11,556 bases of DNA from a virus (taxonomy: Duplodnaviria; Heunggongvirae; Uroviricota; Caudoviricetes): positions 1 to 11,556 of IMG/VR virus record IMGVR_UViG_2713897055_000008. One strand, written 5' to 3'. The notes under the pieces are model-generated. The model was not told the origin of the DNA. It saw nothing but the letters and a program-made list of their open reading frames with translations, and did no database searches. Shown here piece by piece: positions 1 through 11,556 of this stretch (its first letter is position 1; the number at the start of each line of letters is the position of its first letter). The position numbers and the translations under genes were made by a program.

Positions 1-2
1 CG

Positions 3-491
<489 letters not shown>

Positions 492-920
492 GATGGGCGT
501 GATGCCACTGCACTGGAAATACTCCCTGCCATTGACGATCAAAAATCCTTTCCCCGGGGCACGTATGCCACACACCAGGGCGGACTCTGGCGGGCGTATG
601 AAAAAACGCACGGGATGCGGGGATGGGAATGCCTGGTTGACGGGGTGGCGGATATTGACGTCAGCATGACGGGTGAACGGTTGTTCTCTGTGGTGGTCCG
701 GCAGAGCAGTGGCCAGCGTACGGAAAAAACATTTTCCCTGCCGGTGATGCTCTACCGCGGTGTGTTCAGAGCCGGTGAAACCTACCACCCCGGCGATACG
801 GTGACGTGGGGGGGGCTCGCTGTGGCACTGCAACAGTATGACCGGTGATAAACCCGGAGAAGCTCATTCATCAGGCTGGACCCTGGCTGCAAAACGTGGG
901 CGGGATGCAGGAGGCGGAAA

Positions 921-1247
921 ATGACGGCATTACTGACGCTGGAAGAGATCAAGGCACATCTGCGTGTCGACCATGACGCGGATGATGACATGCTGATGGA
1001 CAAGGTTCGTCAGGCTACCGCCGTGCTGCTGGCCTACATTCAGGGCAGCCGGGATAAGGTGATTCGTGAGGACGGTGAACTGATCCCGGGCGAGGCATTA
1101 ACCCGGATGAAGGGGGCTGCCATGCGACTGACCGGGATGCTGTACCGGAATCCGGATCTTGCGGAGCGGGAAGAACTGCTTCAGGGGGAGCTGCCGTTTT
1201 CTGTTTCCGTGCTGATTTACGATTTGCGTTGTCCGACGGTGTTATGA
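921..1247 (+). CDS. Head-tail connector protein, phage gp6-like family
   Basis: ATG 921 with AGGAGG 7 nt upstream. The 108-aa product MTALLTLEEIKAHLRVD..DDDMLMDK...YRNPD matches the pattern I recall for gp6-like connector proteins; position just upstream of head-closure and tail genes fits. Confidence 0.65.
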   Translation: MTALLTLEEIKAHLRVDHDADDDMLMDKVRQATAVLLAYIQGSRDKVIREDGELIPGEALTRMKGAAMRLTGMLYRNPDLAEREELLQGELPFSVSVLIYDLRCPTVL

Positions 1248-1256
1248 GGAGGGGGA

Positions 1257-1607
1257 ATGGCAATATCTGCAGGTCGTCTGACACAGATGATAAGTGTTCT
1301 GAACCCGGTGTTAACCCGTAATGCTGCCGGAGAAATGACGGAAGAATGGGTGTCATGCGGGAAAATTCATGCGGATATCCGTGGCAGGAGCAGCCGGGAG
1401 CGGATGCAGTCCGGTGCGGAAATGGCGCAGGCGGAAATCCGCATCTGGGTGCGCGGTCAGTCCGGTCGGGAAATCACGGCAGCGTCACGACTTCATGTGC
1501 TGAGTGGTCCATGGCGTGACCGGATCCTGAACGTTGTCGGGCTGCCCGTGCCGGATGCGACCGGCGGGCGTCTGGAAATTCTCTGTCGGCTGGGAGGGGA
1601 AAAATGA
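1257..1607 (+). CDS. Head closure / head-tail adaptor protein (SPP1 gp16-like, Phage_H_T_join-type)
   Basis: ATG 1257 preceded by GAGGAGGGGG; 116 aa; the EW..CGKIHADIRGRSSRERMQSGAEMAQAEIRIWVR segment fits the head-closure pattern. Its stop overlaps the next start (ATGA at 1604-1607). Confidence 0.6.
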   Translation: MAISAGRLTQMISVLNPVLTRNAAGEMTEEWVSCGKIHADIRGRSSRERMQSGAEMAQAEIRIWVRGQSGREITAASRLHVLSGPWRDRILNVVGLPVPDATGGRLEILCRLGGEK

Positions 1608-2050
1608 TCGAAACCCTGCTGGATTTTTCGGGGCTGGAGGACATCAGCCGCGATTTGCAGCTTCTGAGTGGTGCGGAAAATAACCGGGTGCTGCGTGAGG
1701 CAACCCGTGCGGGTGCGAATGTGCTGAAAGAAGAAGTGGTGTCACGGGCACCGGTGCGCAGGGGAAAACTGCGCCGCAATGTGGTGGTCCTTTCCCGGCG
1801 CTCCCGCGATGGCGGTATGGAATCCGGTGTCCATATCCGTGGTGTTAATCCGGACACCGGTAACAGCGATAACACCATGAAGGCGGATAACCCGCGCAAT
1901 GCTTTCTACTGGCGGTTTGTGGAAATGGGGACCGTGAATATGCCACCGCACCCGTTTGTACGCCCGGCGTTTGATGTGCGCAGTGAACAGGCAGCGCAGG
2001 TGGCGATTGCGCGGATGAACCGGGCCATTGATGAGGTACTGAGACGATGA
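1604..2050 (+). CDS. HK97 gp10-family tail component / tail completion protein
   Basis: 148 aa, translationally coupled at both ends (ATGA overlaps at 1604 and 2047). The motif FYWRFVEMGTVNMPPHPFVRPAFD is characteristic of the HK97 gp10-like family as I recall it. Confidence 0.65.
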   Translation: MIETLLDFSGLEDISRDLQLLSGAENNRVLREATRAGANVLKEEVVSRAPVRRGKLRRNVVVLSRRSRDGGMESGVHIRGVNPDTGNSDNTMKADNPRNAFYWRFVEMGTVNMPPHPFVRPAFDVRSEQAAQVAIARMNRAIDEVLRR

Positions 2051-2391
2051 CGGAGGCGGATTTGTATCCTCATCTGGCGCATCTTGCCGGCGGGCAGGTG
2101 TACCCGTATGTGGTCCCCCTGCTGGATGGCAGGCCGTCGGTGGCGCTTCCGTGGGTGGTTTTCAGCCTGATTTCATCGGTGTCAGCGGACGTGATGGGCG
2201 GGCAGGCGGAGTCCTCAGTGTCGGTGCAGATAGACGTTTATGCCGGGACTGTGACGCAGGCGCGTCAGATACGTCAGGACGCCCGTGAAGCCATAATGCT
2301 GCTGGCCCCGGGATCCGTCAGTGAAATGCAGGACTATATTCCGGAAAACCGCTGTTACCGTGCAACCCTGGAGTTTCAGGTCACGGTGTGA
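2047..2391 (+). CDS. DUF3168-like tail terminator / tail completion protein
   Basis: 114 aa coupled to the upstream gene; hydrophobic beta-rich pattern (YPYVVPLLDGRPSVALPWVVFSL...VQIDVYAG) and position immediately before the major tail gene. Confidence 0.5.
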   Translation: MTEADLYPHLAHLAGGQVYPYVVPLLDGRPSVALPWVVFSLISSVSADVMGGQAESSVSVQIDVYAGTVTQARQIRQDAREAIMLLAPGSVSEMQDYIPENRCYRATLEFQVTV

Positions 2392-2419
2392 CTTTTTCTT
2401 TTTTCTACAAAACCCATAC

Positions 2420-2440
2420 CCCGCCGCGTGCGGGTTTTTT
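2420..2440 (+). terminator. Intrinsic-terminator-like hairpin between tail terminator gene and major tail gene
   Basis: CCCGC (2420-2424), 5-nt loop, GCGGG (2430-2434), then TTTTTT (2435-2440). Confidence 0.45.
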
Positions 2441-2456
2441 ATTATCAGGAGGCAGA

Positions 2457-3173
2457 ATGTCTGCTTTGTATGAACGCTCACAGCTGACGCAGGTGATGAT
2501 TTCATCTGCCCCGGCGACTGCTGAAACTATGGATAAGGCGGAATATCTGCGCCTGGACTGCACCATCAAGGAAGTCCAGTTCACCGCCGGTCAGAAACAG
2601 GATATTGATGTGACCACGCTCTGCTCCACAGAGCAGGAGAACATCAATGGTCTGGGGGCGTCGTCCGAGATTTCCATGTCGGGTAATTTTTATCTGAATC
2701 AGGCCCAGAACGCCCTGCGTGATGCTTATGACAATGACGCGTTGTATGCGTTTAAGGTGCTGTTTCCGTCCGGTAAGGGCTTTAAATTCCTGGCGGAAGT
2801 GCGCCAGCACACCTGGTCATCCGGTACCAACGGCGTGGTGGCTGCAACGTTCTCACTGCGTCTGAAAGGCAAACCGGTGTCCTTTGTGGTACCGCTGGCG
2901 TTTGTGAAAAATCTGGATAAGACACTTACCGTGAATACCGGTGTGCTGCTGACACTGTCAGTCAGTGCCAACGGGGGAACGCCGCCGTATAAATACGCCT
3001 GGAAGAAGGATGGTCAGCCGGTTGACGGGCAGACGACAGACACCTTCAGTAAGCCCGGTGCGCAGTCCGCTGATGCGGGGAAATATACCTGCGTGGTGAC
3101 CGATTCGGCAGAGAAAGCACAGAGTGTGACGTCTGTTGAATGCACCGTGACAGTGAGCGCAGCCGCCGGATAA
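2457..3173 (+). CDS. Major tail (tube) protein with C-terminal Ig-like domain
   Basis: ATG 2457 with CAGGAGG 5-7 nt upstream; the track's start at 2388 would run through the terminator hairpin. 238 aa. C-terminal ~80 aa (TLTVNTGVLLTLSVSANGGTPPYKYAWKKDGQPV...GKYTCVVTD...VECTVTV) looks like an Ig-like decoration domain. Position before the G/GT chaperone pair. Confidence 0.75.
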   Translation: MSALYERSQLTQVMISSAPATAETMDKAEYLRLDCTIKEVQFTAGQKQDIDVTTLCSTEQENINGLGASSEISMSGNFYLNQAQNALRDAYDNDALYAFKVLFPSGKGFKFLAEVRQHTWSSGTNGVVAATFSLRLKGKPVSFVVPLAFVKNLDKTLTVNTGVLLTLSVSANGGTPPYKYAWKKDGQPVDGQTTDTFSKPGAQSADAGKYTCVVTDSAEKAQSVTSVECTVTVSAAAG

Positions 3174-3187
3174 GGGGATGGGGCATC

Positions 3188-3562
3188 ATGAAAAAGGATC
3201 TGAAAACGCTGGCGCTGGCCAGACTGTCAGGGTTTCGTCATAAAACGGTGAAGGTGCCGGAATGGGGTAATGTCAGCGTGGTGCTGCGGGAGCCTTCGGC
3301 AGAGGCCTGGTATCTGTGGCAGGACGTGCTCAATGGTGATGGAGAGGATGACGATACCCTGTCGGTGGTGGCGAAAACCCGCCGTAACCTGGAAGCGGAT
3401 GTGACGCTGTTCTGCGATGTCCTGTGTGATACGGACCTGCAGCGGGTGTTCACTCCGGACGACCGTGAGCAGGTGCTGGCCGTCTATGGTCCGGTACATG
3501 CCCGGTTGCTGCGTCAGGCACTGGAACTGATCGCTGATGCAGAGTCGGCCAGAAAAAAGTAG
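3188..3562 (+). CDS. Tail assembly chaperone (lambda gpG analogue)
   Basis: ATG 3188 (MKKDLKTL...) with a G-rich Shine-Dalgarno; acidic ~124-aa protein placed between major tail and tape measure genes; ends AAA AAG TAG on a slippery heptamer. Confidence 0.7.
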   Translation: MKKDLKTLALARLSGFRHKTVKVPEWGNVSVVLREPSAEAWYLWQDVLNGDGEDDDTLSVVAKTRRNLEADVTLFCDVLCDTDLQRVFTPDDREQVLAVYGPVHARLLRQALELIADAESARKK

Positions 3563-3867
3563 CCCGCCCGGAAATTCGCTTTCTGATGCGACTTGCGCTC
3601 CGTCTGGGGCGCACCTTATCCGAACTGCGGCACAGCCTGAGTGCGAGCGAGGCGATGATGTGGATGGAGTTCGACAGGATATCCCCGCTGGGTGATGAGC
3701 GCGGGGATATCCGTAATGCACAGATCGTGAAAGCGGTTTTCGGGGCACAGGGGATGAATGTTGCACTGAAGGACGCCATGCTCTGCTGGGGCGAGGATGA
3801 GGATAAGCCGGAGGTGGATCCGTTTGCGGCGCTGGAAGACGCGCTGAGCTTTGCAGCACAGTCATGA
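3188..3867 (+). CDS. Tail assembly chaperone fusion (gpGT analogue) made by a -1 programmed frameshift at 3553-3559
   Basis: The -1 frame is open from the slippery site A AAA AAG (3553-3559) to TGA 3865-3867 with no stops; the frame relationship (2 to 1) matches the conserved G/GT arrangement of siphovirus tail chaperones. Coordinates span both frames. Confidence 0.6.
3553..3559 (+). promoter_or_regulatory. -1 ribosomal frameshift slippery heptamer A AAA AAG
   Basis: Read directly: aga aaa aag tag in the G frame; the heptamer is the last two sense codons before the G stop. Confidence 0.6.
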
Positions 3868-3876
3868 ATGATGAGA

Positions 3877-3896
3877 ACCGCTGAGGCGGTTTTTTT
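3877..3896 (+). terminator. Weak intrinsic-terminator-like hairpin between GT and tape-measure gene
   Basis: ACCGC (3877-3881), loop TGAG, GCGGT (3886-3890), then a run of six T (3891-3896). Confidence 0.35.
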
Positions 3897-3914
3897 ACGC
3901 CCGGAGAAAGGTGA

Positions 3915-5831
3915 ATGGCGACGTTACGTGAACTGATTATCAAAATTTCGGCAAATTCACAGTCATTCCAGTCGGAGATCCAGCGGGCGTCCCGTATGGG
4001 CAGTGAATATTACCGGACCCTGCAGAATGGCGGACGTCAGGCTGCTGCGGCAGCCAGGGAGCAGCGCCGGGCTCTGGCTGAGCTGAACAGCCAGTTGATG
4101 GAAATCCGCGCTTCGGCTGTCGGAATGACCGGTGCGGTTGCCGGTGCCTTTGCCACCGGACACCTGATTTCGCTGGCGGATGAATGGAGCTCCGTGAACG
4201 CCCGTCTGAAACAGGCGTCGCAGTCATCGGATGAATTTGCGTCATCACAGAAAGTACTGATGGATATCAGCCAGCGGACAGGCACCGCATTTTCGGATAA
4301 TGCGGCCCTGTTTGCCCGTTCGGCTGCCTCGATGCGTGAATATGGTTACAGTGCTGATGATGTGCTGAAGGTGACAGAGGCCATTTCGACAGGGCTGAAA
4401 ATTTCCGGTGCCAGTACGGCAGAGGCGGGGTCGGTGATCACCCAGTTCAGCCAGGCGCTGGCACAGGGTGTGTTACGCGGTGAGGAATTTAATTCGGTCA
4501 ATGAAAGTGGGGACCGGATCATTCGCGCACTGGCTGCAGGCATGGGCGTGGCCCGTAAAGATCTGAAGGCGATGGCGGACGATGGTCAACTGACGGCGGA
4601 TAAAGTCGTTCCCGCGTTAATCAGCCAGCTGGGGATATTGCGTGATGAATATGCAGCCATGCCGGAAACGGTGGCTGACGGGATCACGAAGGTGGAAAAC
4701 GCCTTTATGGCCTGGGTGGGTGGCGCGAATGAGGCCAGCGGAGCGACGAAAACGCTCTCCGGCGTGCTGAACGGTGTGGCCGGAAATATCGATACCGTGG
4801 CAACAGCTGCGGGTGTGCTGGTTGCTGTCGGGGTGGCCCGGTACTTTGGCAATATGGCATCCGGTGTGGGAAAGGCCACGACAGAACTGCTTGCTGCGAA
4901 GTCTGGCACTGTTGCCCTGGCAGCGGCGCAGGCAGATGCTGCGGTTCAGGTGCAACGTAAGGCGGCGGCTGACGCTCTGGCGGCAGAACGTGCCTGGCAA
5001 CTGGCACAGGCAGAACTCGCCGTGGCCAGAAATACCAGTGCGGAGGCGCTGGTCACACAGAATGCCGTCGCAAAACGTCGGGCCATGATTGTGGCCAATG
5101 CTGCACTGGTGCAGTCGAATCATGCAGTGGCGGCCTCGGGGAAGGCGCTGGAGAATGCCACGTCGGTTACGGGAATGCTGAAAAGTGGCGCTGCATCCCT
5201 GCTTTCTCTGGTCGGCGGGATACCCGGTTTACTGATGCTTGGGGCCGGTGCCTGGTACACGGTGTACCAGCGTCAGGAACAGGCCAGGGAGTCCGCGCGC
5301 CAGTATGCATCGACGATTGATGAAATCCGGGCAAAGCTGCCAGGAATGACCCTTCCGGAACTGGCTGATAATGAGGGTAAAACCCGCGAAGCACTGGAAG
5401 AGCAGAATCGTCTGATTGCTGAGCAGGAAAGTAAAGTCCGGGGACTGAAAACACAGATTGCTGACTATCAGCGCTGGCTGCAGGAAAATCCACAGGGTGG
5501 TTCAGGTGCGGAGATTATAACCCACGGCCTTGCTGAGGCAACCGGCAGGCTGGCGGTTGAACAGTCACGACTGACACAGATGCAGGAAAGGGCGAGGTCT
5601 GTACAGGAAACGCTGGCGTCACTGGAGTACAACCGTGTAGCGAGGATACGTGAGGAGGCGGCAGAGCAGAACAGGGCATACCAGGCATTACTGCAGATGA
5701 ATGTTCAGCATACGGAATTCAACCGCCTGCTGGGGCTGGGTAATGAACTGCTGCAACAGCGTCAGGGACTGGCGAGTGTACCGCTGCGACTGCCACAGGC
5801 CACTCTGGATGATAAACAGCAGGCGCCCTGA
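3915..5831 (+). CDS. H: Tail tape measure protein, N-terminal segment (frame 3)
   Basis: ATG 3915 with GGAG 8 nt upstream; 638 aa, Ala/Gln-rich and largely helical, with an N-terminal region typical of lambda-family tape measure proteins; ends at TGA 5829-5831 straight after a CCC run. Confidence 0.85.
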   Translation: MATLRELIIKISANSQSFQSEIQRASRMGSEYYRTLQNGGRQAAAAAREQRRALAELNSQLMEIRASAVGMTGAVAGAFATGHLISLADEWSSVNARLKQASQSSDEFASSQKVLMDISQRTGTAFSDNAALFARSAASMREYGYSADDVLKVTEAISTGLKISGASTAEAGSVITQFSQALAQGVLRGEEFNSVNESGDRIIRALAAGMGVARKDLKAMADDGQLTADKVVPALISQLGILRDEYAAMPETVADGITKVENAFMAWVGGANEASGATKTLSGVLNGVAGNIDTVATAAGVLVAVGVARYFGNMASGVGKATTELLAAKSGTVALAAAQADAAVQVQRKAAADALAAERAWQLAQAELAVARNTSAEALVTQNAVAKRRAMIVANAALVQSNHAVAASGKALENATSVTGMLKSGAASLLSLVGGIPGLLMLGAGAWYTVYQRQEQARESARQYASTIDEIRAKLPGMTLPELADNEGKTREALEEQNRLIAEQESKVRGLKTQIADYQRWLQENPQGGSGAEIITHGLAEATGRLAVEQSRLTQMQERARSVQETLASLEYNRVARIREEAAEQNRAYQALLQMNVQHTEFNRLLGLGNELLQQRQGLASVPLRLPQATLDDKQQAP

Positions 5832-7180
5832 ATAACACAGAGCGTCAACTTGCCCTGTCCCGGCTGAAAGGGGAAGAAAAAGAGCGTGCCCGGCTGGGGT
5901 ATGCGGCGGATGACCTTGGTCTGGTGGGGGATACGTATCAGGAGGCGAGGCAGCGTTACATCCGTAATTCGATGGAAGCCTGGCGCAATAATGAGGCGAA
6001 TAAACCCAAATCCCGGGCCGGAAAATCAGGGGCGGAAAAAGCGGAAGACAGTTTTTCCCGTCTGCTGAAGCAGCAGAAGGAACAACTGGCACTGGCCGGG
6101 AAGAATACAGAACTGGCGAAGCTGAAGTACCAGACCTCGCAGGGCGAGCTGAAAACCCTGACGGAGATTCAGAAGCAGGAGCTGCTGCGCAATGCTGCCC
6201 TGATTGACCAGAAGAAAATCCGGGAGCAGTTACGGGCCCGGGAGGAGACCCTGAAAAATGATAATGCAGACGCAAGGGCATCAAATGACGCAGAGCTGCT
6301 GGGATACGGGCAGGGTGAGCGGATCCGAGAACGGATGCGGGAGCTGCAGCAGATTCGTGACGGCTACCGCCAGAAGGATGCGGACCTGCAGTCTCAGTAT
6401 CAGACAGGGGATATCAGTGAGGATTTTTACAGACAGGCGCTGGCGCAGAATGCGCAGTATCTGAGAGAGCGTCTGAAAGACCAGGAGGCTTTTTATGCCG
6501 AATCGGATGCGCAGCGTGCTGACTGGCAGAAAGGGCTGCAGGAAGGGCTAAGTAACTGGGTGGACAGCGCATCAGATTACGCTTCACAGGCAGCACAGCT
6601 TGCGACAGACGGTATCTCAGGGATGGTAAATAACATCACGGATATGCTGAACGGAAATAAAGTGGAATGGCGCAGCTGGGCAGCATCAATCCTGCAGGAA
6701 ATATCAAAAGTCCTTATGAATGCGGCCATTGTCAACGGCATTAAGATGGCGGCAAACAGTATGTCCGGTGCAGGAGGATTTTTCGGCAGTATAGGCAACT
6801 GGCTGGGTGGCGCGGTGGCAAATGCAAAAGGCGGCGTTTATACCTCGGCAAACCTGAGTGCATACAGTAACAGTATTGTGGACACGCCCACGTACTTTGC
6901 CTTTGCAAAAGGGGCAGGGCTGATGGGGGAGGCCGGACCTGAAGCCATAATGCCCCTGACCCGGGCAGCGGATGGTTCACTCGGCGTGCGTGCGGTGGGC
7001 AGTATGAACGGCAGTGCGGGTCTGGTGTATTCTCCGGTGTACCACATCGCCATTCAGAATGACGGCGCTAACGGGCAGATAGGGCCGGAAGCGGCGGGCA
7101 CCCTTGTGCAACTGATTGACCAGCGGGTACAGGCGGTGATGTTATCCATGCGTCGTGACGGAGGAATGCTGAGTGGATGA
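5816..7180 (+). CDS. H: Tail tape measure protein, C-terminal segment (frame 2; no credible independent start)
   Basis: Frame 2 is open from 5816, overlapping the end of the frame-3 segment; first in-frame start is a GTG at 5924 with no Shine-Dalgarno. The C-terminal part (GGVYTSANLSAYSNSIVDTPTYFAFAKGAGLMGEAGPEAIMPL...) resembles the lambda gpH C-terminal region as I recall it. TGA 7178-7180 overlaps the M start. Confidence 0.8.
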   Translation, partial: TAGALNNTERQLALSRLKGEEKERARLGYAADDLGLVGDTYQEARQRYIRNSMEAWRNNEANKPKSRAGKSGAEKAEDSFSRLLKQQKEQLALAGKNTELAKLKYQTSQGELKTLTEIQKQELLRNAALIDQKKIREQLRAREETLKNDNADARASNDAELLGYGQGERIRERMRELQQIRDGYRQKDADLQSQYQTGDISEDFYRQALAQNAQYLRERLKDQEAFYAESDAQRADWQKGLQEGLSNWVDSASDYASQAAQLATDGISGMVNNITDMLNGNKVEWRSWAASILQEISKVLMNAAIVNGIKMAANSMSGAGGFFGSIGNWLGGAVANAKGGVYTSANLSAYSNSIVDTPTYFAFAKGAGLMGEAGPEAIMPLTRAADGSLGVRAVGSMNGSAGLVYSPVYHIAIQNDGANGQIGPEAAGTLVQLIDQRVQAVMLSMRRDGGMLSG

Positions 7181-7514
7181 GATTAAGACCCTTCACTGGT
7201 GTCCCCGGGAAGGGATGCAGGTGACGGAGAAACCGTCGGTGGTGACGGTGAAGTTTGGCGACGGTTATCAGCAGCGTCGTCCGGCAGGACTGAATGCGCA
7301 ACTGAAGACCTTTCAGGTGGTTTTTCGGGTGACAACGGATGCTGAGCGGGAGGCACTGTCCGCGTTTCTGTCATGGCATGGTGGTTACCGGGCTTTTTTG
7401 TGGAAGCCCCCGAAACATAACCGGACGGTCAGGGTGGTGTGCCGGGAGTGGAGTATTACGGATAACGCCCGGTACAGTGATTTCAGTTGCACGATAGAGC
7501 AGGTGGTGAACTGA
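7173..7514 (+). CDS. M: Minor tail protein M (tail tip)
   Basis: GTG 7173 with GGAGGAA 8 nt upstream; 113 aa closely resembling lambda gpM as recalled (...RFGDGYQQRRPAGLNAQLKT...FLWKPP...EQVVN); stop overlaps the L start (TGATG). Confidence 0.88.
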   Translation: MDEIKTLHWCPREGMQVTEKPSVVTVKFGDGYQQRRPAGLNAQLKTFQVVFRVTTDAEREALSAFLSWHGGYRAFLWKPPKHNRTVRVVCREWSITDNARYSDFSCTIEQVVN

Positions 7515-8212
7515 TGCAGGATATTCACGAAGAAAGCCTGAACGAGTCGGTTAAGTCAGAGCAGTCACCGCGGGTGGTGCTCTGGGAAATCGACCTGACG
7601 GTGCAGGGCGGTGAGCGGTATTTTTTCTGCAATGAGCTGAATGAAAAAGGGGAGCCGGTGACCTGGCAGGGGCGTGAATATCAGGCGTACCCGATTGAGG
7701 GGAGTGGCTTTGAGATGAACGGAAAGGGCAGCAGTGCCCGCCCGTCGCTGACGGTGTCCAATCTTTTCGGCTTTGTCACCGGGATGGCGGAGGATTTGCA
7801 GAGCCTGGTGGGGGCCACGGTGGTCCGCCGCCGGGTGTATGCGCGTTTTCTGGATGCGGTGAACTTTGTGGCAGGCAATCCTGAGGCCGACCCGGAGCAG
7901 GAGCTGACGGACCGGTGGGTGGTGGAGCAGATGTCAGCGCTGACGGCCATGACGGCCTCGTTTGTGCTGGCGACACCGACGGAGACGGACGGTGCGCTGT
8001 TTCCCGGTCGCATCATGCTGGCGAACACCTGTATGTGGGATTACCGGGGCGATGAATGCGGGTATAACGGTCCGGCAGTGGCGGATGAGTTCGACAACCC
8101 CACCACGGATATCCGGAATGACAGATGCAGTAAATGCATGCGCGGGTGTGAGATGCGCGGCATGGTGGCTAATTTCGGCGGTTTCCTTTCCATTAATAAA
8201 CTTTCGCAGTAA
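7514..8212 (+). CDS. L: Minor tail protein L (tail tip, Fe-S cluster protein)
   Basis: ATG 7514 (MQDIHEESLNE...), 232 aa, strongly resembling lambda gpL as recalled, including the C-terminal Cys cluster and FGGFLSINKLSQ ending; the track's alternative start at 7487 is rejected. Confidence 0.9.
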   Translation: MQDIHEESLNESVKSEQSPRVVLWEIDLTVQGGERYFFCNELNEKGEPVTWQGREYQAYPIEGSGFEMNGKGSSARPSLTVSNLFGFVTGMAEDLQSLVGATVVRRRVYARFLDAVNFVAGNPEADPEQELTDRWVVEQMSALTAMTASFVLATPTETDGALFPGRIMLANTCMWDYRGDECGYNGPAVADEFDNPTTDIRNDRCSKCMRGCEMRGMVANFGGFLSINKLSQ

Positions 8213-8222
8213 ATCCCGTTTT

Positions 8223-8966
8223 ATGACACAGACTGAATCAGCGATTCTGGCGCATGCCCGGCGGTGTGCGCCAGCGGAGTCGTGCGGCTTCGTGATAAGC
8301 ACCCCGGAGGGGGAGCGGTACCAGCCCTGCGTGAATATCTCCGCAGAGCCGGAGGCGTATTTTCGTATTGCGCCGGAGGACTGGCTGCAGGCACAGATGC
8401 AGGGGGAGATTGTGGCGCTGGTCCACAGTCATCCCGGTGGTCTGCCCTGGCTGAGCGAGGCGGACCGGCGGCTGCAGATAAAGAGTGCCCTGCCCTGGTG
8501 GCTGGTCTGTCGGGGTGAAATTCACCGGTTCCGCTGTGTGCCGCACCTGACCGGACGGCGCTTTGAACACGGTGTGACGGACTGTTACACCCTGTTCCGG
8601 GATGCATACCATCTGGCGGGGATAACGCTGCCGGATTTTGTGCGTGAGGATGACTGGTGGCGCAACGGCCAGAACCTGTACCTGGACAACCTGGCGGACA
8701 ATGGATTTTACCGGGTGTCTCCGTCCTGTGCACAGGCAGGCGATATCCTGCTGTGCTGCTTTGGCGCATCGGTGCCGAATCATGCCGCCATTTACTGTGG
8801 CAACGGTGAACTGCTTCACCATATACCTGAACAACTGAGTAAACGGGAGAGGTATTCTGAAAAATGGCAACGACGAACGCATTCTGTCTGGCGTCACCGC
8901 CACTGGTCCACATCTGCCTTCACGGGGATTTACAACGATTTGGTCGCCGCATCAGTCTGTATGTGA
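8223..8966 (+). CDS. K: Tail tip assembly protein K (JAMM/MPN plus NlpC/P60 domains)
   Basis: ATG 8223 (MTQTESAILAHARR...); JAMM motif HSHPGGLPWLSEAD at 8424-8465; NlpC/P60 catalytic Cys (GVTDCYTLF) at 8583-8585 with downstream His. The frame stays open to TGA 8964-8966, overlapping I by 103 nt. Confidence 0.85.
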   Translation: MTQTESAILAHARRCAPAESCGFVISTPEGERYQPCVNISAEPEAYFRIAPEDWLQAQMQGEIVALVHSHPGGLPWLSEADRRLQIKSALPWWLVCRGEIHRFRCVPHLTGRRFEHGVTDCYTLFRDAYHLAGITLPDFVREDDWWRNGQNLYLDNLADNGFYRVSPSCAQAGDILLCCFGASVPNHAAIYCGNGELLHHIPEQLSKRERYSEKWQRRTHSVWRHRHWSTSAFTGIYNDLVAASVCM

Positions 8967-9508
8967 ACACGGCAGCGGAGGCCATCCGTGCCCTGTCGCA
9001 GCAGGTGCCGGGATTCCGCTGTCAGATGAACGAAGGCTGGTACCAGATACGTATTGCCGGTGAGGATACCGCGCCGGACCAGATATCGCCCCGACTGCAT
9101 GAGCCACTGAACCCGGGGGATGTCATTCATCTGGTTCCCCGGGCAGAAGGTGCCAAAAGTGGCGGAGTGTTTCAGGCCGTGCTTGGCGTTGCGCTGGTTG
9201 CGGCAGCTATCTGGATGCCGGGTATCGGTATTGCAGCCAGCAACATCATGTTTTCCATGGGCTCTGCAATGGCACTGGGTGGTGTGGCCCAGATGCTGGC
9301 CCCGAAGGCAAAGACGCCGGAGTACAAAAGCACGGATAACGGCAGACAGAACACGTATTTTTCGTCACTGGACAACATGATTGCTCAGGGGAATCCGGTG
9401 CCGGTGCCTTACGGTGAAATGCTGGTTGGTTCACGACGGATATCCCAGGACATCAGCACCCGTGATGAGGGCGGTGACGGGAAAGTGGTGGTTATCGGGC
9501 GGGGATGA
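8864..9508 (+). CDS. I: Tail tip assembly protein I
   Basis: ATG 8864 is the first start after in-frame stops; 214 aa; N-terminus (...ICLHGDLQRFGRRI...AEAIRAL...) and C-terminal region (KSGGVFQ...NTYFSSLDNM...VVVIGRG) resemble lambda gpI as recalled. Confidence 0.88.
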   Translation: MATTNAFCLASPPLVHICLHGDLQRFGRRISLYVNTAAEAIRALSQQVPGFRCQMNEGWYQIRIAGEDTAPDQISPRLHEPLNPGDVIHLVPRAEGAKSGGVFQAVLGVALVAAAIWMPGIGIAASNIMFSMGSAMALGGVAQMLAPKAKTPEYKSTDNGRQNTYFSSLDNMIAQGNPVPVPYGEMLVGSRRISQDISTRDEGGDGKVVVIGRG

Positions 9509-9512
9509 AAAT

Positions 9513-9547
9513 AAAAAAAAATCCCGCAGTGCTCTGTAGCTGCGGGA
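9513..9547 (-). terminator. Intrinsic-terminator-like element, minus-strand orientation (unit 1)
   Basis: Stem TCCCGCAG (9522-9529) / CTGCGGGA (9540-9547), 10-nt loop; on the minus strand it is followed by nine T (9513-9521). Confidence 0.55.
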
Positions 9548-9644
9548 AGAGATACGAAGATTAACTTTAAGGAATTTTTCATTATTCTGGCAGATGAACT
9601 GTAACGCAGCGTGATTATGAGCACTACAGTCAGTGTGCGGAAAT

Positions 9645-9671
9645 GTGAATAAACTCAGAATTTTTATTCAC
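9645..9671. repeat. Perfect 9-bp inverted repeat GTGAATAAA-N9-TTTATTCAC (unit 1)
   Basis: Read directly; degenerate in units 2 and 4. Confidence 0.5.
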
Positions 9672-9734
9672 GGGAAGGGAGGGGCCGGATATCGGTGGCA
9701 GAGGACAGAAGGCATCATGCCGGGTTCAGGGGAT

Positions 9735-9767
9735 AAAAAAAATCCCGCAGTACTCCGTGCTGCGGGA
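9735..9767 (-). terminator. Intrinsic-terminator-like element, minus-strand orientation (unit 2)
   Basis: Stem 9743-9750 / 9760-9767 (same 8-bp sequence as unit 1), 9-nt loop; eight T on the minus strand (9735-9742). Confidence 0.55.
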
Positions 9768-9958
9768 AGAGAACGATGTTGACTAACCTGTTGGCGTTTT
9801 ATTTTTATTGACCCGAAGAAACTGTAACCTGCCGGAATGCACTCTGCCACGGAGAATGACGGAAAATGTGAAGAAAATCAGAGTTTTTATTTATCCCGTA
9901 CATTCGTCTCTGGCGACAGAGTGGCGTCAGTAATGTCCGTGATACTGAGGGGGGAATT

Positions 9959-9997
9959 AAAAAATCTCCCGTAATACACCTGGATATTGACGGGAGA
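9959..9997 (-). terminator. Terminator-like hairpin, minus-strand orientation (unit 3, variant stem)
   Basis: Stem TCTCCCGT (9965-9972) / ACGGGAGA (9990-9997) with an inner AATA/TATT extension; six T on the minus strand (9959-9964). Different stem sequence from the other units but same fold. Confidence 0.4.
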
Positions 9998-10099
9998 AAC
10001 GAATAGTCACCTTAAGGAGTAGTTTTGATTATTGCCTGTAATCAGCGGGCGAATTGTAACGTATGGTGATTATGAGTGCCACAGGTAATTTGCAGAAAT

Positions 10100-10126
10100 G
10101 TGAATAAATTCAGAATTTTTATTCAC
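10100..10126. repeat. Perfect 9-bp inverted repeat GTGAATAAA-N9-TTTATTCAC (unit 3)
   Basis: Read directly; identical arms and spacing to the unit-1 copy. Confidence 0.5.
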
Positions 10127-10188
10127 AGGAAGGGGCTGCGGGATATCGGTGGCAGAGGACAGAAAATATCAGGCCGGGTTTAAGGGAT

Positions 10189-10222
10189 AAAAAAATCCCG
10201 CAGAGTCAGCGGAGCTGCGGGA
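10189..10222 (-). terminator. Intrinsic-terminator-like element, minus-strand orientation (unit 4)
   Basis: Stem 10196-10203 / 10215-10222 (TCCCGCAG/CTGCGGGA), 11-nt loop; seven T on the minus strand (10189-10195). Confidence 0.55.
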
Positions 10223-10395
10223 GAGAACGATGAAGATTAACGTTATGGAGTTATTTTTCAGGCATCAAAAAAGTAACGCAGCGTCATTATTGCGGCTACA
10301 GGCAATTTGCAGAAATGTGAAGAATTTCAGAAATTTTATTCCGTCATGACACAGGCACCTCCGGGGTGCCTGTTGTTTTTGGGCATAAACAGATT

Positions 10396-10422
10396 CAGAC
10401 ATCAGACATCAGACATCAGACA
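10396..10422 (+). repeat. Heptanucleotide microsatellite (CAGACAT) x ~3.9 just upstream of the J ribosome-binding site
   Basis: Read directly: cagacat cagacat cagacat cagaca, followed by GGAGAGGGGG and the GTG start at 10438. Confidence 0.8.
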
Positions 10423-10437
10423 GGAGAGGGGGACAGA

Positions 10438-11556
10438 GTGGGTAAAGGGGGCGGCAAGGGGCACACACCGCGTGAGGCGAAGGACAATCTCAAATCCACG
10501 CAGATGATGAGCGTGATTGATGCCATTGGTGAGGGACCGGTGGAAGGCCCGGTGAAGGGACTGCAGAGTATTCTGGTGAACAAAACCCCGCTGACGGACA
10601 CGGACGGTAATCCCGTGATACACGGTGTGACCGCCGTCTGGCGTGCCGGGGAGCAGGAGCAGACACCGCCGGAAGGCTTTGAGTCCTCCGGGGCAGAAAC
10701 CGCACTGGGCGTGGAGGTGTCGAAGGCAAAGCCGGTGACGCGCACCATCACGTCAGCGAACATTGACCGTCTGCGGGTCACCTTCGGGGTGCAGTCACTG
10801 GTGGAGACCACCTCAAAGGGTGACCGTAATCCCTCTTCTGTCCGCCTGCTGATTCAGCTTGAGCGTAACGGTAACTGGGTGACGGAGAAGGATGTCACCA
10901 TTAACGGCAAGACCACCTCGCAGTACCTGACGTCGGTGATTCTGAATAATCTCCCTGAGCGCCCCTTTAACATCCGGATGGTCAGGGAGACGGCGGACAG
11001 CACCACGGACCAGCTGCAGAACAGAACGCTGTGGTCGTCATACACCGAAATCATCGATGTGAAACAGTGCTACCCGAACACGGCCATTGTGGGGCTGCAG
11101 GTGGATGCGGAGCAGTTCGGTGGCCAGCAGCTGACGGTGAACTACCATATCCGTGGTCGCATCATTCAGGTGCCGTCAAACTATGACCCGGAAAAACGCA
11201 CCTACAGCGGTATCTGGGACGGCAGCCTGAAACCGGCATACAGCAATAACCCGGCCTGGTGCCTGTGGGACATGCTGACCCACCCGCGCTACGGGATGGG
11301 AAAACGCCTGGGGGCCGCGGATGTGGACAAGTGGGCACTGTATGCCATCGGGCAGTACTGCGACCAGACGGTCCCGGATGGTTTCGGGGGCACAGAGCCG
11401 CGGATGACCTTTAATGCGTACCTGTCACAGCAGCGTAAGGTGTGGGATGTCCTGGGGGATTTCTGCTCGGCGATGCGCTGTATGCCGGTATGGAACGGTC
11501 AGACGCTGACGTTCGTTCAGGACCGTCCGTCGGATGTGGTGTGGCCGTACACGAAC
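10438..11556 (+). CDS. J: Tail tip / host specificity protein J, N-terminal 373 codons (continues past window end)
   Basis: GTG 10438 preceded by GGAGAGGGGG. Translation (M)GKGGGKGHTPREAKDNLKSTQMMSVIDAIGEGPVEGPV...WCLWDMLTHPRYGMGKRLG... is near-identical to the lambda J N-terminus as recalled. Absent from the ORF track because there is no stop inside the window. Confidence 0.93.
   Translation, partial: MGKGGGKGHTPREAKDNLKSTQMMSVIDAIGEGPVEGPVKGLQSILVNKTPLTDTDGNPVIHGVTAVWRAGEQEQTPPEGFESSGAETALGVEVSKAKPVTRTITSANIDRLRVTFGVQSLVETTSKGDRNPSSVRLLIQLERNGNWVTEKDVTINGKTTSQYLTSVILNNLPERPFNIRMVRETADSTTDQLQNRTLWSSYTEIIDVKQCYPNTAIVGLQVDAEQFGGQQLTVNYHIRGRIIQVPSNYDPEKRTYSGIWDGSLKPAYSNNPAWCLWDMLTHPRYGMGKRLGAADVDKWALYAIGQYCDQTVPDGFGGTEPRMTFNAYLSQQRKVWDVLGDFCSAMRCMPVWNGQTLTFVQDRPSDVVWPYTN

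What the first reader, a model, noticed from the sequence alone, without database searches (positions are those of the whole stretch)
5810..5831. Tape measure gene split across two frames at a CCC run
The tape measure reading frame ends at TGA 5829-5831, while the continuation is open in the -1 frame from 5816 and encodes lambda-H-like C-terminal sequence with no credible start of its own. Inserting one nucleotide anywhere in 5816-5828 (for example CCC to CCCC at 5826-5828) restores a single ~1088-aa ORF. This is either a homopolymer sequencing error, an inactivating mutation marking a defective prophage, or unusual recoding. The tape measure protein is essential for tail assembly, so the distinction matters for whether the prophage can make infectious particles.
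Basis: seen in the sequence. Interest (0 to 1): 0.55.

Follow-up and report, generated by a model that had tools for sequence, protein, structure and literature searches.

The report
One-base gap splitting tape measure gene
The phage tail tape measure gene really is broken into two reading frames here, but the cause is one missing G in a short G run that no related genome shares, and the same window holds five other run-length slips and a chimeric join, so it is most likely a sequencing or assembly error, not biology.

Summary
ORF 3915-5831 (638 aa, TGA at 5829-5831) continues in the -1 frame from 5816 to 7180. The two pieces total 3266 nt, against 3267 nt in intact homologues.

The cause is not the CCC run. 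The window has GG at 5822-5823 where its nearest relatives have GGG (more distant ones have GAG). Restoring one G gives a 1088-aa protein identical at every residue to a known E. coli tape measure protein recorded on 84 contigs.

The deletion is private. It is absent from all 643 matching complete E. coli genomes and from the GTDB, metagenome and viral collections.

From 162 to about 10,700 the window differs from its closest relative only by run or repeat length:
- G7 to G8, which breaks the portal gene
- GGG to GG (the finding)
- A8 to A9
- A7 to A8
- CCC to CC
- one fewer 7-nt repeat unit

There are no substitutions in that span. Bases 1-161 are a fragment of the ribosomal gene rpsD, which has its own GG-to-G loss and is joined bluntly to the middle of the portal gene.

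The overlap has no slippery heptamer and no conserved two-frame layout, so recoding is rejected.

Verdict: most likely a homopolymer sequencing or assembly artefact (about 0.8). A real, very recent inactivating mutation is the main rival (about 0.17). Interest is low.

The parts
3915..5831 (+). N-terminal 638-aa piece of the tail tape measure gene, ending at the premature TGA 5829-5831
   Evidence: Pfam TMP_3 and Phage_HK97_TLTM, the latter cut at profile position 233/295.
5822..5823 (+). The lesion: GG where the closest relatives have GGG (and more distant ones GAG). One base is missing, which shifts the frame by -1.
   Evidence: Alignments. No complete E. coli genome matches an 80-mer across the site without a gap. 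Exact junction pattern absent from GTDB representatives, metagenome and viral contigs.
5816..7180 (+). C-terminal continuation of the tape measure gene in the -1 frame. It has no start of its own before GTG 5924.
   Evidence: Pfam Tape_meas_lam_C. With one G restored, the whole 1088-aa product is identical to the TMP of L009, L010, L013 and L017 and to EEC7810896.1, which is on 84 contigs.
1..161 (+). 3' fragment of rpsD (ribosomal protein S4). It has a single G at 89 where rpsD has GG, and it stops 15 nt short of the rpsD stop codon, joined bluntly to phage DNA.
   Evidence: All 5426 genomes match it; the listed best hits (99.4%) differ only by this one-base gap, so none shares the deletion.
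162..924 (+). 3' part of the phage portal gene. A G8 run at 808-815 (relatives have G7) shifts the frame and gives a premature TGA at 846-848.
9513..9521 (+). A9 run, intergenic. It is A8 in the four relatives that cover this site (L009-L012).
9735..9742 (+). A8 run, intergenic. It is A7 in all nine relatives compared.
10358..10359 (+). CC in a hairpin-like intergenic sequence. It is CCC in all relatives compared.
10395..10422 (+). (TCAGACA)x4 tandem repeat just upstream of the gpJ start (GTG 10438). L001 and L009-L012 have one more unit; L005, L007 and L008 appear to have fewer (about two), judged from truncated local alignments.

Best explanation
The tape measure gene of an HK97/lambda-type E. 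coli prophage tail module is interrupted by the loss of one G from a GGG run (window GG 5822-5823). This most likely did not happen in the cell. It looks like a homopolymer-length error of the sequencing or consensus step in a low-quality, probably chimeric, assembly. The real gene would then be the intact 1088-aa tape measure found in closely related E. coli genomes. Shown here: the position and nature of the indel, that it is private to this sequence, that the restored protein is identical to a known one, the other run-length changes, and the foreign rpsD fragment. Inferred: that the cause is technical and not mutational. No reads are available to confirm it.
For: (1) Closest relatives were found through exact copies of the window's L and major tail proteins. 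They are draft E. coli genomes, and all have an intact 1088-aa TMP.
(2) Window 162-9397 against L013, L017, L014 and L018 shows 0 mismatches and exactly 2 one-base gaps, at portal 808 and TMP 5822.
(3) From 162 to about 10,700 every difference from L010 is a run or repeat-length change: G7 to G8, GGG to GG, A8 to A9, A7 to A8, CCC to CC, and one fewer TCAGACA unit. There are no substitutions.
(4) The 161-nt rpsD fragment has no substitutions, but one GG-to-G deletion that none of 5426 complete genomes shares.
(5) Three of the five runs that are 7 nt or longer in the relatives are altered.
(6) Even in mismatch-repair-defective E. coli mutation-accumulation lines, substitutions outnumber small indels about 7 to 1 in coding sequence (6.02 against 0.85 per CDS, PMC8510543). 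Seven length changes with no substitution would have probability about 4e-7 under that spectrum.
(7) The rpsD/portal junction at 161/162 has at most 1 nt of microhomology and is found in no collection. That fits a chimeric join.
(8) The restored TMP is residue-for-residue a known protein on 84 contigs, while the 638-aa truncated product is on record nowhere.
(9) Substitutions that separate this lineage from the relatives at about 98.6% identity are all at third codon positions of the restored frame downstream of the break (8 of 8, 6 of them synonymous). The C-terminal part was therefore under selection as one ORF until, at most, very recently.
Against: No reads or quality values are available, so an authentic mutation cannot be excluded. 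Frameshifts in prophage structural genes do occur. The closest relatives share an inherited G6-to-G5 break in the portal gene, and RefSeq marks the TMP of strain S19-651 as frameshifted at a different site. Long A or G runs also vary between the relatives themselves (L011 has G6; L009 has a different A-run layout), so some of the long-run changes could be natural polymorphism. The source record was not identified, so its sequencing platform is unknown.
Confidence: 0.8

Rival explanations
1. A real, very recent one-base deletion (replication slippage in GGG) that inactivates the tape measure gene of a prophage which is already defective or decaying. The 638-aa product would lack the C-terminal lambda-H-like part, and no tail could be assembled.
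For: The frame break is unambiguous in the sequence. Related prophages carry real or annotated frameshifts in the portal and TMP genes. The window's own portal fragment is also frame-broken and truncated. A prophage remnant is under no selection to stay intact.
Against: The change is private: 0 of 643 matching complete genomes and 0 hits in three large collections. It comes with no substitutions against the closest relatives over about 10.5 kb but five other length changes, a spectrum unlike natural mutation even in mutators. The essential gene rpsD shows the same kind of lesion in its fragment. Two- and three-base runs are very poor slippage targets, because indel rates rise exponentially with run length (PMC8510543).
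Confidence: 0.17
2. Programmed -1 ribosomal frameshifting, or another recoding event, joins the two frames to make a full-length tape measure protein from the sequence as written.
For: The downstream frame is -1 relative to the upstream one, and the two overlap by 13-16 nt. A genuine -1 frameshift site exists about 2.3 kb upstream in the G/GT chaperone genes (A AAA AAG at 3553-3559), so recoding does occur in this module.
Against: There is no X XXY YYZ heptamer in or near the overlap. The only one in the TMP frame is GGGAAAG at 4868, about 950 nt upstream. The downstream RNA folds no better than shuffled sequence (z = -1.18). Every homologue examined encodes this position in one continuous frame, with otherwise identical flanking sequence. 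There is thus no conservation of a two-frame layout.
Confidence: 0.01
3. Two independently initiated genes: a short tape measure and a separate C-terminal protein.
For: The mechanical ORF list gives 5924-7180 with a GTG start.
Against: No Shine-Dalgarno-like sequence precedes GTG 5924. The Phage_HK97_TLTM domain is cut mid-profile at the break. All relatives have one 1088-aa (or 1080-aa) gene.
Confidence: 0.01

Closest known systems
Intact E. coli prophage tail tape measure protein, 1088 aa (EEC7810896.1 and identical entries; also WP_097452029.1 in strain STEC1588)
   Same: With one G restored, the window's product is identical over all 1088 residues to EEC7810896.1. It has the same Pfam architecture, TMP_3 + Phage_HK97_TLTM + Tape_meas_lam_C. 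It has the same neighbours: G and T chaperones upstream, and M-, L-, K-, I- and J-like genes downstream.
   Different: The window lacks one G (GG against GGG at 5822-5823), so the gene reads as a 638-aa ORF plus a start-less -1 frame continuation.
Bacteriophage lambda gpH / HK97 tail length tape measure protein (own knowledge for lambda biology)
   Same: It has the Tape_meas_lam_C and Phage_HK97_TLTM domains. Gene order follows lambda: V, G, T, H, M, L, K, I, J.
   Different: It is not lambda itself. The best matches in the phage collection are about 91-92% identical over 85-87% of the window. Head genes are HK97-like, with a fused protease-capsid gene.
G/GT programmed -1 frameshift of tail assembly chaperones (Xu, Hendrix and Duda 2004; own knowledge)
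   Same: Both are two overlapping frames in a tail gene. The genuine site is present in this window, at A AAA AAG 3553-3559.
   Different: The TMP break has no slippery heptamer, no conservation and no two-frame homologues. It is not a member of this class.
Homopolymer-length consensus errors of long-read, 454 or Ion Torrent assemblies, which create spurious 'frameshifted' pseudogenes (own knowledge)
   Same: There are only run or repeat-length differences from near-identical genomes, with no substitutions. Both long runs (+1) and short runs (-1) are affected. Frame breaks fall in essential and structural genes alike.
   Different: The platform and reads are unknown here, so the match is by error signature only.

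Membership tests
Phage tail tape measure protein (lambda gpH / HK97 TLTM type) | Pfam TMP_3, Phage_HK97_TLTM and Tape_meas_lam_C domains | tested here: met
   E-values 6.9e-58, 1.7e-60 and 7.4e-19, spread over the two pieces. The same three families hit the relatives' 1088-aa protein.
Phage tail tape measure protein (lambda gpH / HK97 TLTM type) | Position between the G/T tail assembly chaperones and the M/L/K/I/J tail tip genes | tested here: met
   ORF order in the window and the annotation of collinear relatives.
Phage tail tape measure protein (lambda gpH / HK97 TLTM type) | One continuous ORF | tested here: not met
   The window has 638 aa plus a -1 frame continuation. All close relatives are continuous at this site.
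Programmed -1 ribosomal frameshift | Slippery heptamer X XXY YYZ in the zero frame inside the overlap | tested here: not met
   none within 5816-5831. The nearest in-frame heptamer is at 4868.
Programmed -1 ribosomal frameshift | Two-frame arrangement conserved in homologues | tested here: not met
   every homologue has an extra base and a single frame here.
Programmed -1 ribosomal frameshift | Stimulatory downstream RNA structure | tested here: not met
   MFE -31.1 kcal/mol, z = -1.18, and 20 of 200 shuffles fold at least as well. Pseudoknots were not modelled.
Sequencing or assembly artefact (homopolymer-length error) | The change is private to this one sequence | tested here: met
   (best match among 643 genomes is 98.8%, i.e. 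the one-base gap). (no exact hits). (truncated protein not on record).
Sequencing or assembly artefact (homopolymer-length error) | Differences from near-identical genomes are run-length changes only, at several independent sites | tested here: met
   no substitutions, and six length changes between 162 and about 10,700. GG to G in the rpsD fragment.
Sequencing or assembly artefact (homopolymer-length error) | Lesions also hit genes that cannot be lost, and there are signs of misassembly | tested here: met
   a frame-broken rpsD fragment is joined bluntly to the middle of a portal gene.
Sequencing or assembly artefact (homopolymer-length error) | Raw reads disagree with the consensus at the site | not testable with these tools
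   No reads or quality values are available, and the source record was not identified.
Authentic prophage pseudogene | The lesion is inherited, i.e. shared by related genomes | tested here: not met
   By contrast, the G6-to-G5 portal break of the relatives is shared by five assemblies.
Authentic prophage pseudogene | Signs of relaxed selection around the lesion | tested here: not met
   The restored protein is identical to a known one. Lineage-specific substitutions downstream of the break are all at third codon positions of the restored frame.

The most novel reading that the evidence does not exclude
The GG allele, the G8 portal run, the rpsD fragment and its junction are all real. The window would then come from a strain, for example a strong frameshift mutator or a heavily rearranged lineage, in which a prophage remnant sits next to a duplicated and decaying piece of the alpha ribosomal operon and accumulates almost only slippage mutations. 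A still more exotic version is non-canonical recoding across 5816-5828, which rescues a full-length tape measure.
Probability: 0.03. Interest if true: 0.4.

Novelty: not a real feature. Interest (0 to 1): 0.08.

Why it matters
It matters mainly as a quality flag. If the break is taken at face value, an annotator would call the tape measure a pseudogene and the prophage tail-defective. The evidence says the underlying gene is most likely the ordinary intact 1088-aa tape measure, and that the whole window carries run-length errors and a chimeric join. Other 'frameshifts' from the same source should therefore be distrusted. If the deletion were real, it would be one more inactivated prophage gene. 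That is a common and well understood event, and it would leave the prophage unable to build tails.

Tried and rejected
Alignment puts the lost base in the G run at 5821-5823, not at 5826-5828.

(b) I first read the lesion as loss of a non-homopolymer A, because relatives at about 98.6% identity have GAG. I revised this when closer relatives showed GGG.

(c) The search for the source record failed:
- The exact 638-aa product is not on record.
- The TMP junction pattern is absent from GTDB representatives, metagenome contigs and viral contigs.
- The rpsD/portal junction pattern is absent from GTDB and metagenome contigs.
- No near-identical record exists in the phage or plasmid collections.
- The best complete E. 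coli genome is only 98.6% identical.

(d) I tested whether the window also has substitution errors. It does not. From 162 to about 10,700 there are none against L010. The roughly 15 differences in gpJ are mostly synonymous third-position changes, so they are a natural J allele.

(e) The recoding checks were negative: slippery heptamer scan, downstream fold and Rfam scan.

(f) I looked for microhomology that could explain the rpsD/portal junction by recombination. There is at most 1 nt.

Full report
**Observation.** The window encodes the tail module of an HK97/lambda-type E. coli prophage. In order it holds:
- the 3' part of the portal gene
- the connector, head closure, gp10-like and gp17-like genes
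- the major tail protein
- the G and T chaperones
- the tape measure gene
- the M-, L-, K- and I-like genes
- the start of J

This order comes from the ORF list and the annotation of collinear relatives. The tape measure ORF runs 3915-5831 (638 aa) and stops at TGA 5829-5831. The -1 frame is open from 5816, after TAA 5813-5815, to 7180. Its first possible start is GTG 5924, with no ribosome binding site. Pfam places TMP_3 and Phage_HK97_TLTM on the first piece. The HK97_TLTM match is cut at profile position 233 of 295, at the frame break. Tape_meas_lam_C is on the second piece.

**Where the lesion is.** The two pieces total 3266 nt, and intact homologues have 3267 nt. Against complete genomes at about 98.6% identity, the window lacks the A of CAGCAGAGCGCC. 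Much closer relatives were found by exact look-up of the window's L and major tail proteins. These are draft E. coli genomes, loci L009 to L020. They read CAGCAGGGCGCC, so the window has GG (5822-5823) in place of GGG. Inserting one G gives a 1088-aa protein identical at every residue to the tape measure of L009, L010, L013 and L017. It is also identical to EEC7810896.1, which is recorded on 84 contigs.

**Is it shared?** No.
- An 80-mer across the site matches 643 complete E. coli genomes, and the best matches are 98.8%, which is the one-base gap.
- The exact junction is absent from 185,579 GTDB species representatives, from JGI metagenome contigs and from IMG/VR.
- The 638-aa product is not on record.

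**Context that decides the interpretation.** Window 162-9397 against L013, L017, L014 and L018 has 0 mismatches and exactly two one-base gaps. In a multiple alignment, every difference from L010 between 162 and about 10,700 is a run or repeat-length change:
- G7 to G8 at 808-815. This shifts the portal frame and gives a stop at 846-848.
- GGG to GG at 5821-5823 (the finding).
- A8 to A9 at 9513-9521.
- A7 to A8 at 9735-9742.
- CCC to CC at 10358-10359.
- One fewer TCAGACA unit at 10395-10422.

Three of the five runs that are 7 nt or longer are altered.

Beyond about 10,700, in gpJ, roughly 15 substitutions appear. Ten of them are synonymous third-position changes, so they represent a different natural J allele.

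Bases 1-161 are not phage DNA. They are the 3' part of rpsD (ribosomal protein S4), identical to E. coli rpsD except for a single G at 89 where the gene has GG. None of 5426 complete genomes shares that deletion. The fragment stops 15 nt before the rpsD stop codon and is joined, with at most 1 nt of microhomology, to the middle of the portal gene. The junction is found in no collection.

**Mechanism.** The window shows seven length changes, no substitutions, a frame-broken piece of an essential gene and a blunt foreign join. That is the signature of homopolymer-length errors and a chimeric join in a low-quality assembly, not of mutation.

In mismatch-repair-defective E. coli mutation-accumulation lines, substitutions still outnumber small indels about 7 to 1 in coding sequence, and indel rates rise exponentially with run length (PMC8510543). 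Under that spectrum, seven of seven events being indels has probability about 4e-7. Runs of two or three bases are also poor slippage targets.

Substitutions that separate this lineage from the relatives at about 98.6% identity are biased to third codon positions. All eight that lie downstream of the break fall at third positions of the restored frame. The C-terminal half was therefore maintained as part of one ORF until, at most, very recently.

I put about 0.8 on a technical artefact. The step from 'error-like signature' to 'error' is an inference, because no reads are available.

**Rivals.**
- A real private deletion in a decaying prophage remains possible, at about 0.17. Prophage genes of this family do break. 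Five of the closest relatives share a G6-to-G5 frameshift in the portal gene upstream of the part held in the window. RefSeq also marks the tape measure of strain S19-651 as frameshifted at another site.
- Recoding is rejected. There is no X XXY YYZ heptamer in the overlap, the downstream fold is unremarkable, there is no Rfam hit, and no homologue has a two-frame layout.
- Two separately initiated genes are also rejected. There is no start signal, a Pfam domain is cut at the break, and all homologues are continuous.

**Comparison with known systems.** The gene belongs to the lambda gpH / HK97 tape measure family by domain content and position. Only the 'single ORF' feature fails, and it fails by one base. 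The window's genuine recoding site is elsewhere: A AAA AAG at 3553-3559, just before the G stop codon, with the T frame in -1. This is the conserved G/GT chaperone frameshift (own knowledge: Xu, Hendrix and Duda 2004).

**Novelty and verdict.** Nothing here is new. The feature is real in the text of the sequence but is most probably not real in the organism. If it were real, it would be an ordinary inactivating frameshift in a prophage whose portal gene is already compromised. Interest is low (0.08).

Noticed in passing
window 1-161, junction at 161/162: A 3' fragment of the essential ribosomal protein gene rpsD. It has a single G at 89 where rpsD has GG, and it lacks the last 15 nt of the gene. 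It is joined bluntly to the middle of a phage portal gene. It is probably a chimeric assembly join, and the junction was not found in any collection searched.
   Followed up: yes
window 808-815 (portal fragment 162-924): A G8 run where relatives have G7 (one draft, L011, has G6). It shifts the portal frame and gives a premature TGA at 846-848. This is a second frame break in the window.
   Followed up: yes
L010 ~2170 (also L009, L012, L013, L017); outside the window: The five closest relatives share a G6-to-G5 change that splits the portal gene into two frames (stop-to-stop ORFs 811-2190 and 2151-3410 in L010), and no portal protein is called there. Being shared by independent assemblies, it looks like a real inherited lesion, so this prophage lineage may already be defective. 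A conserved recoding site was not excluded.
   Followed up: partly
L010 2352-2941; window 162-454 is the last part: The 3' half of the portal gene contains a 162-nt tandem repeat, 3.6 copies at 92% identity (54-aa units).
   Followed up: partly
window 3553-3562: A canonical slippery heptamer, A AAA AAG, lies immediately before the stop codon (TAG 3560-3562) of the G-like tail assembly chaperone. The T-like ORF (3586-3867) is in the -1 frame. This is the expected G/GT programmed frameshift.
   Followed up: partly
window 10395-10422: A heptamer tandem repeat, (TCAGACA)x4, lies just upstream of the gpJ start (GTG 10438). Copy number differs between relatives: one more unit in L001 and L009-L012, and apparently about two units in L005, L007 and L008 (from truncated local alignments).
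   Followed up: partly
window 9509-10437: About 920 nt between the I-like and J genes have no called gene in any relative. The stretch contains two copies of an A-run followed by a TCCCGCAGT-type motif (at 9513 and 9735) and a GC-rich hairpin at 10352-10372. There is no Rfam match.
   Followed up: partly
L002 5415-6509; L005 9053-10216: Some related prophages carry an ompC-like porin gene (a moron) inserted between the M-like gene and L. The window and its closest relatives lack it.
   Followed up: no
L002 1617-4882 (strain S19-651), equivalent to window ~5298: The tape measure gene of this RefSeq complete genome is annotated 'frameshifted' because of a missing C at a different site. Portal genes of strains 89-3156 and RM7190 are also annotated frameshifted. 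Single-base frame breaks are thus common in this prophage family's records.
   Followed up: partly
window 10650-11556: The start of gpJ differs from the otherwise identical relatives by about 15 mostly synonymous substitutions. The best complete-genome match is 99.1%. This indicates a recombinant or mosaic J allele.
   Followed up: partly
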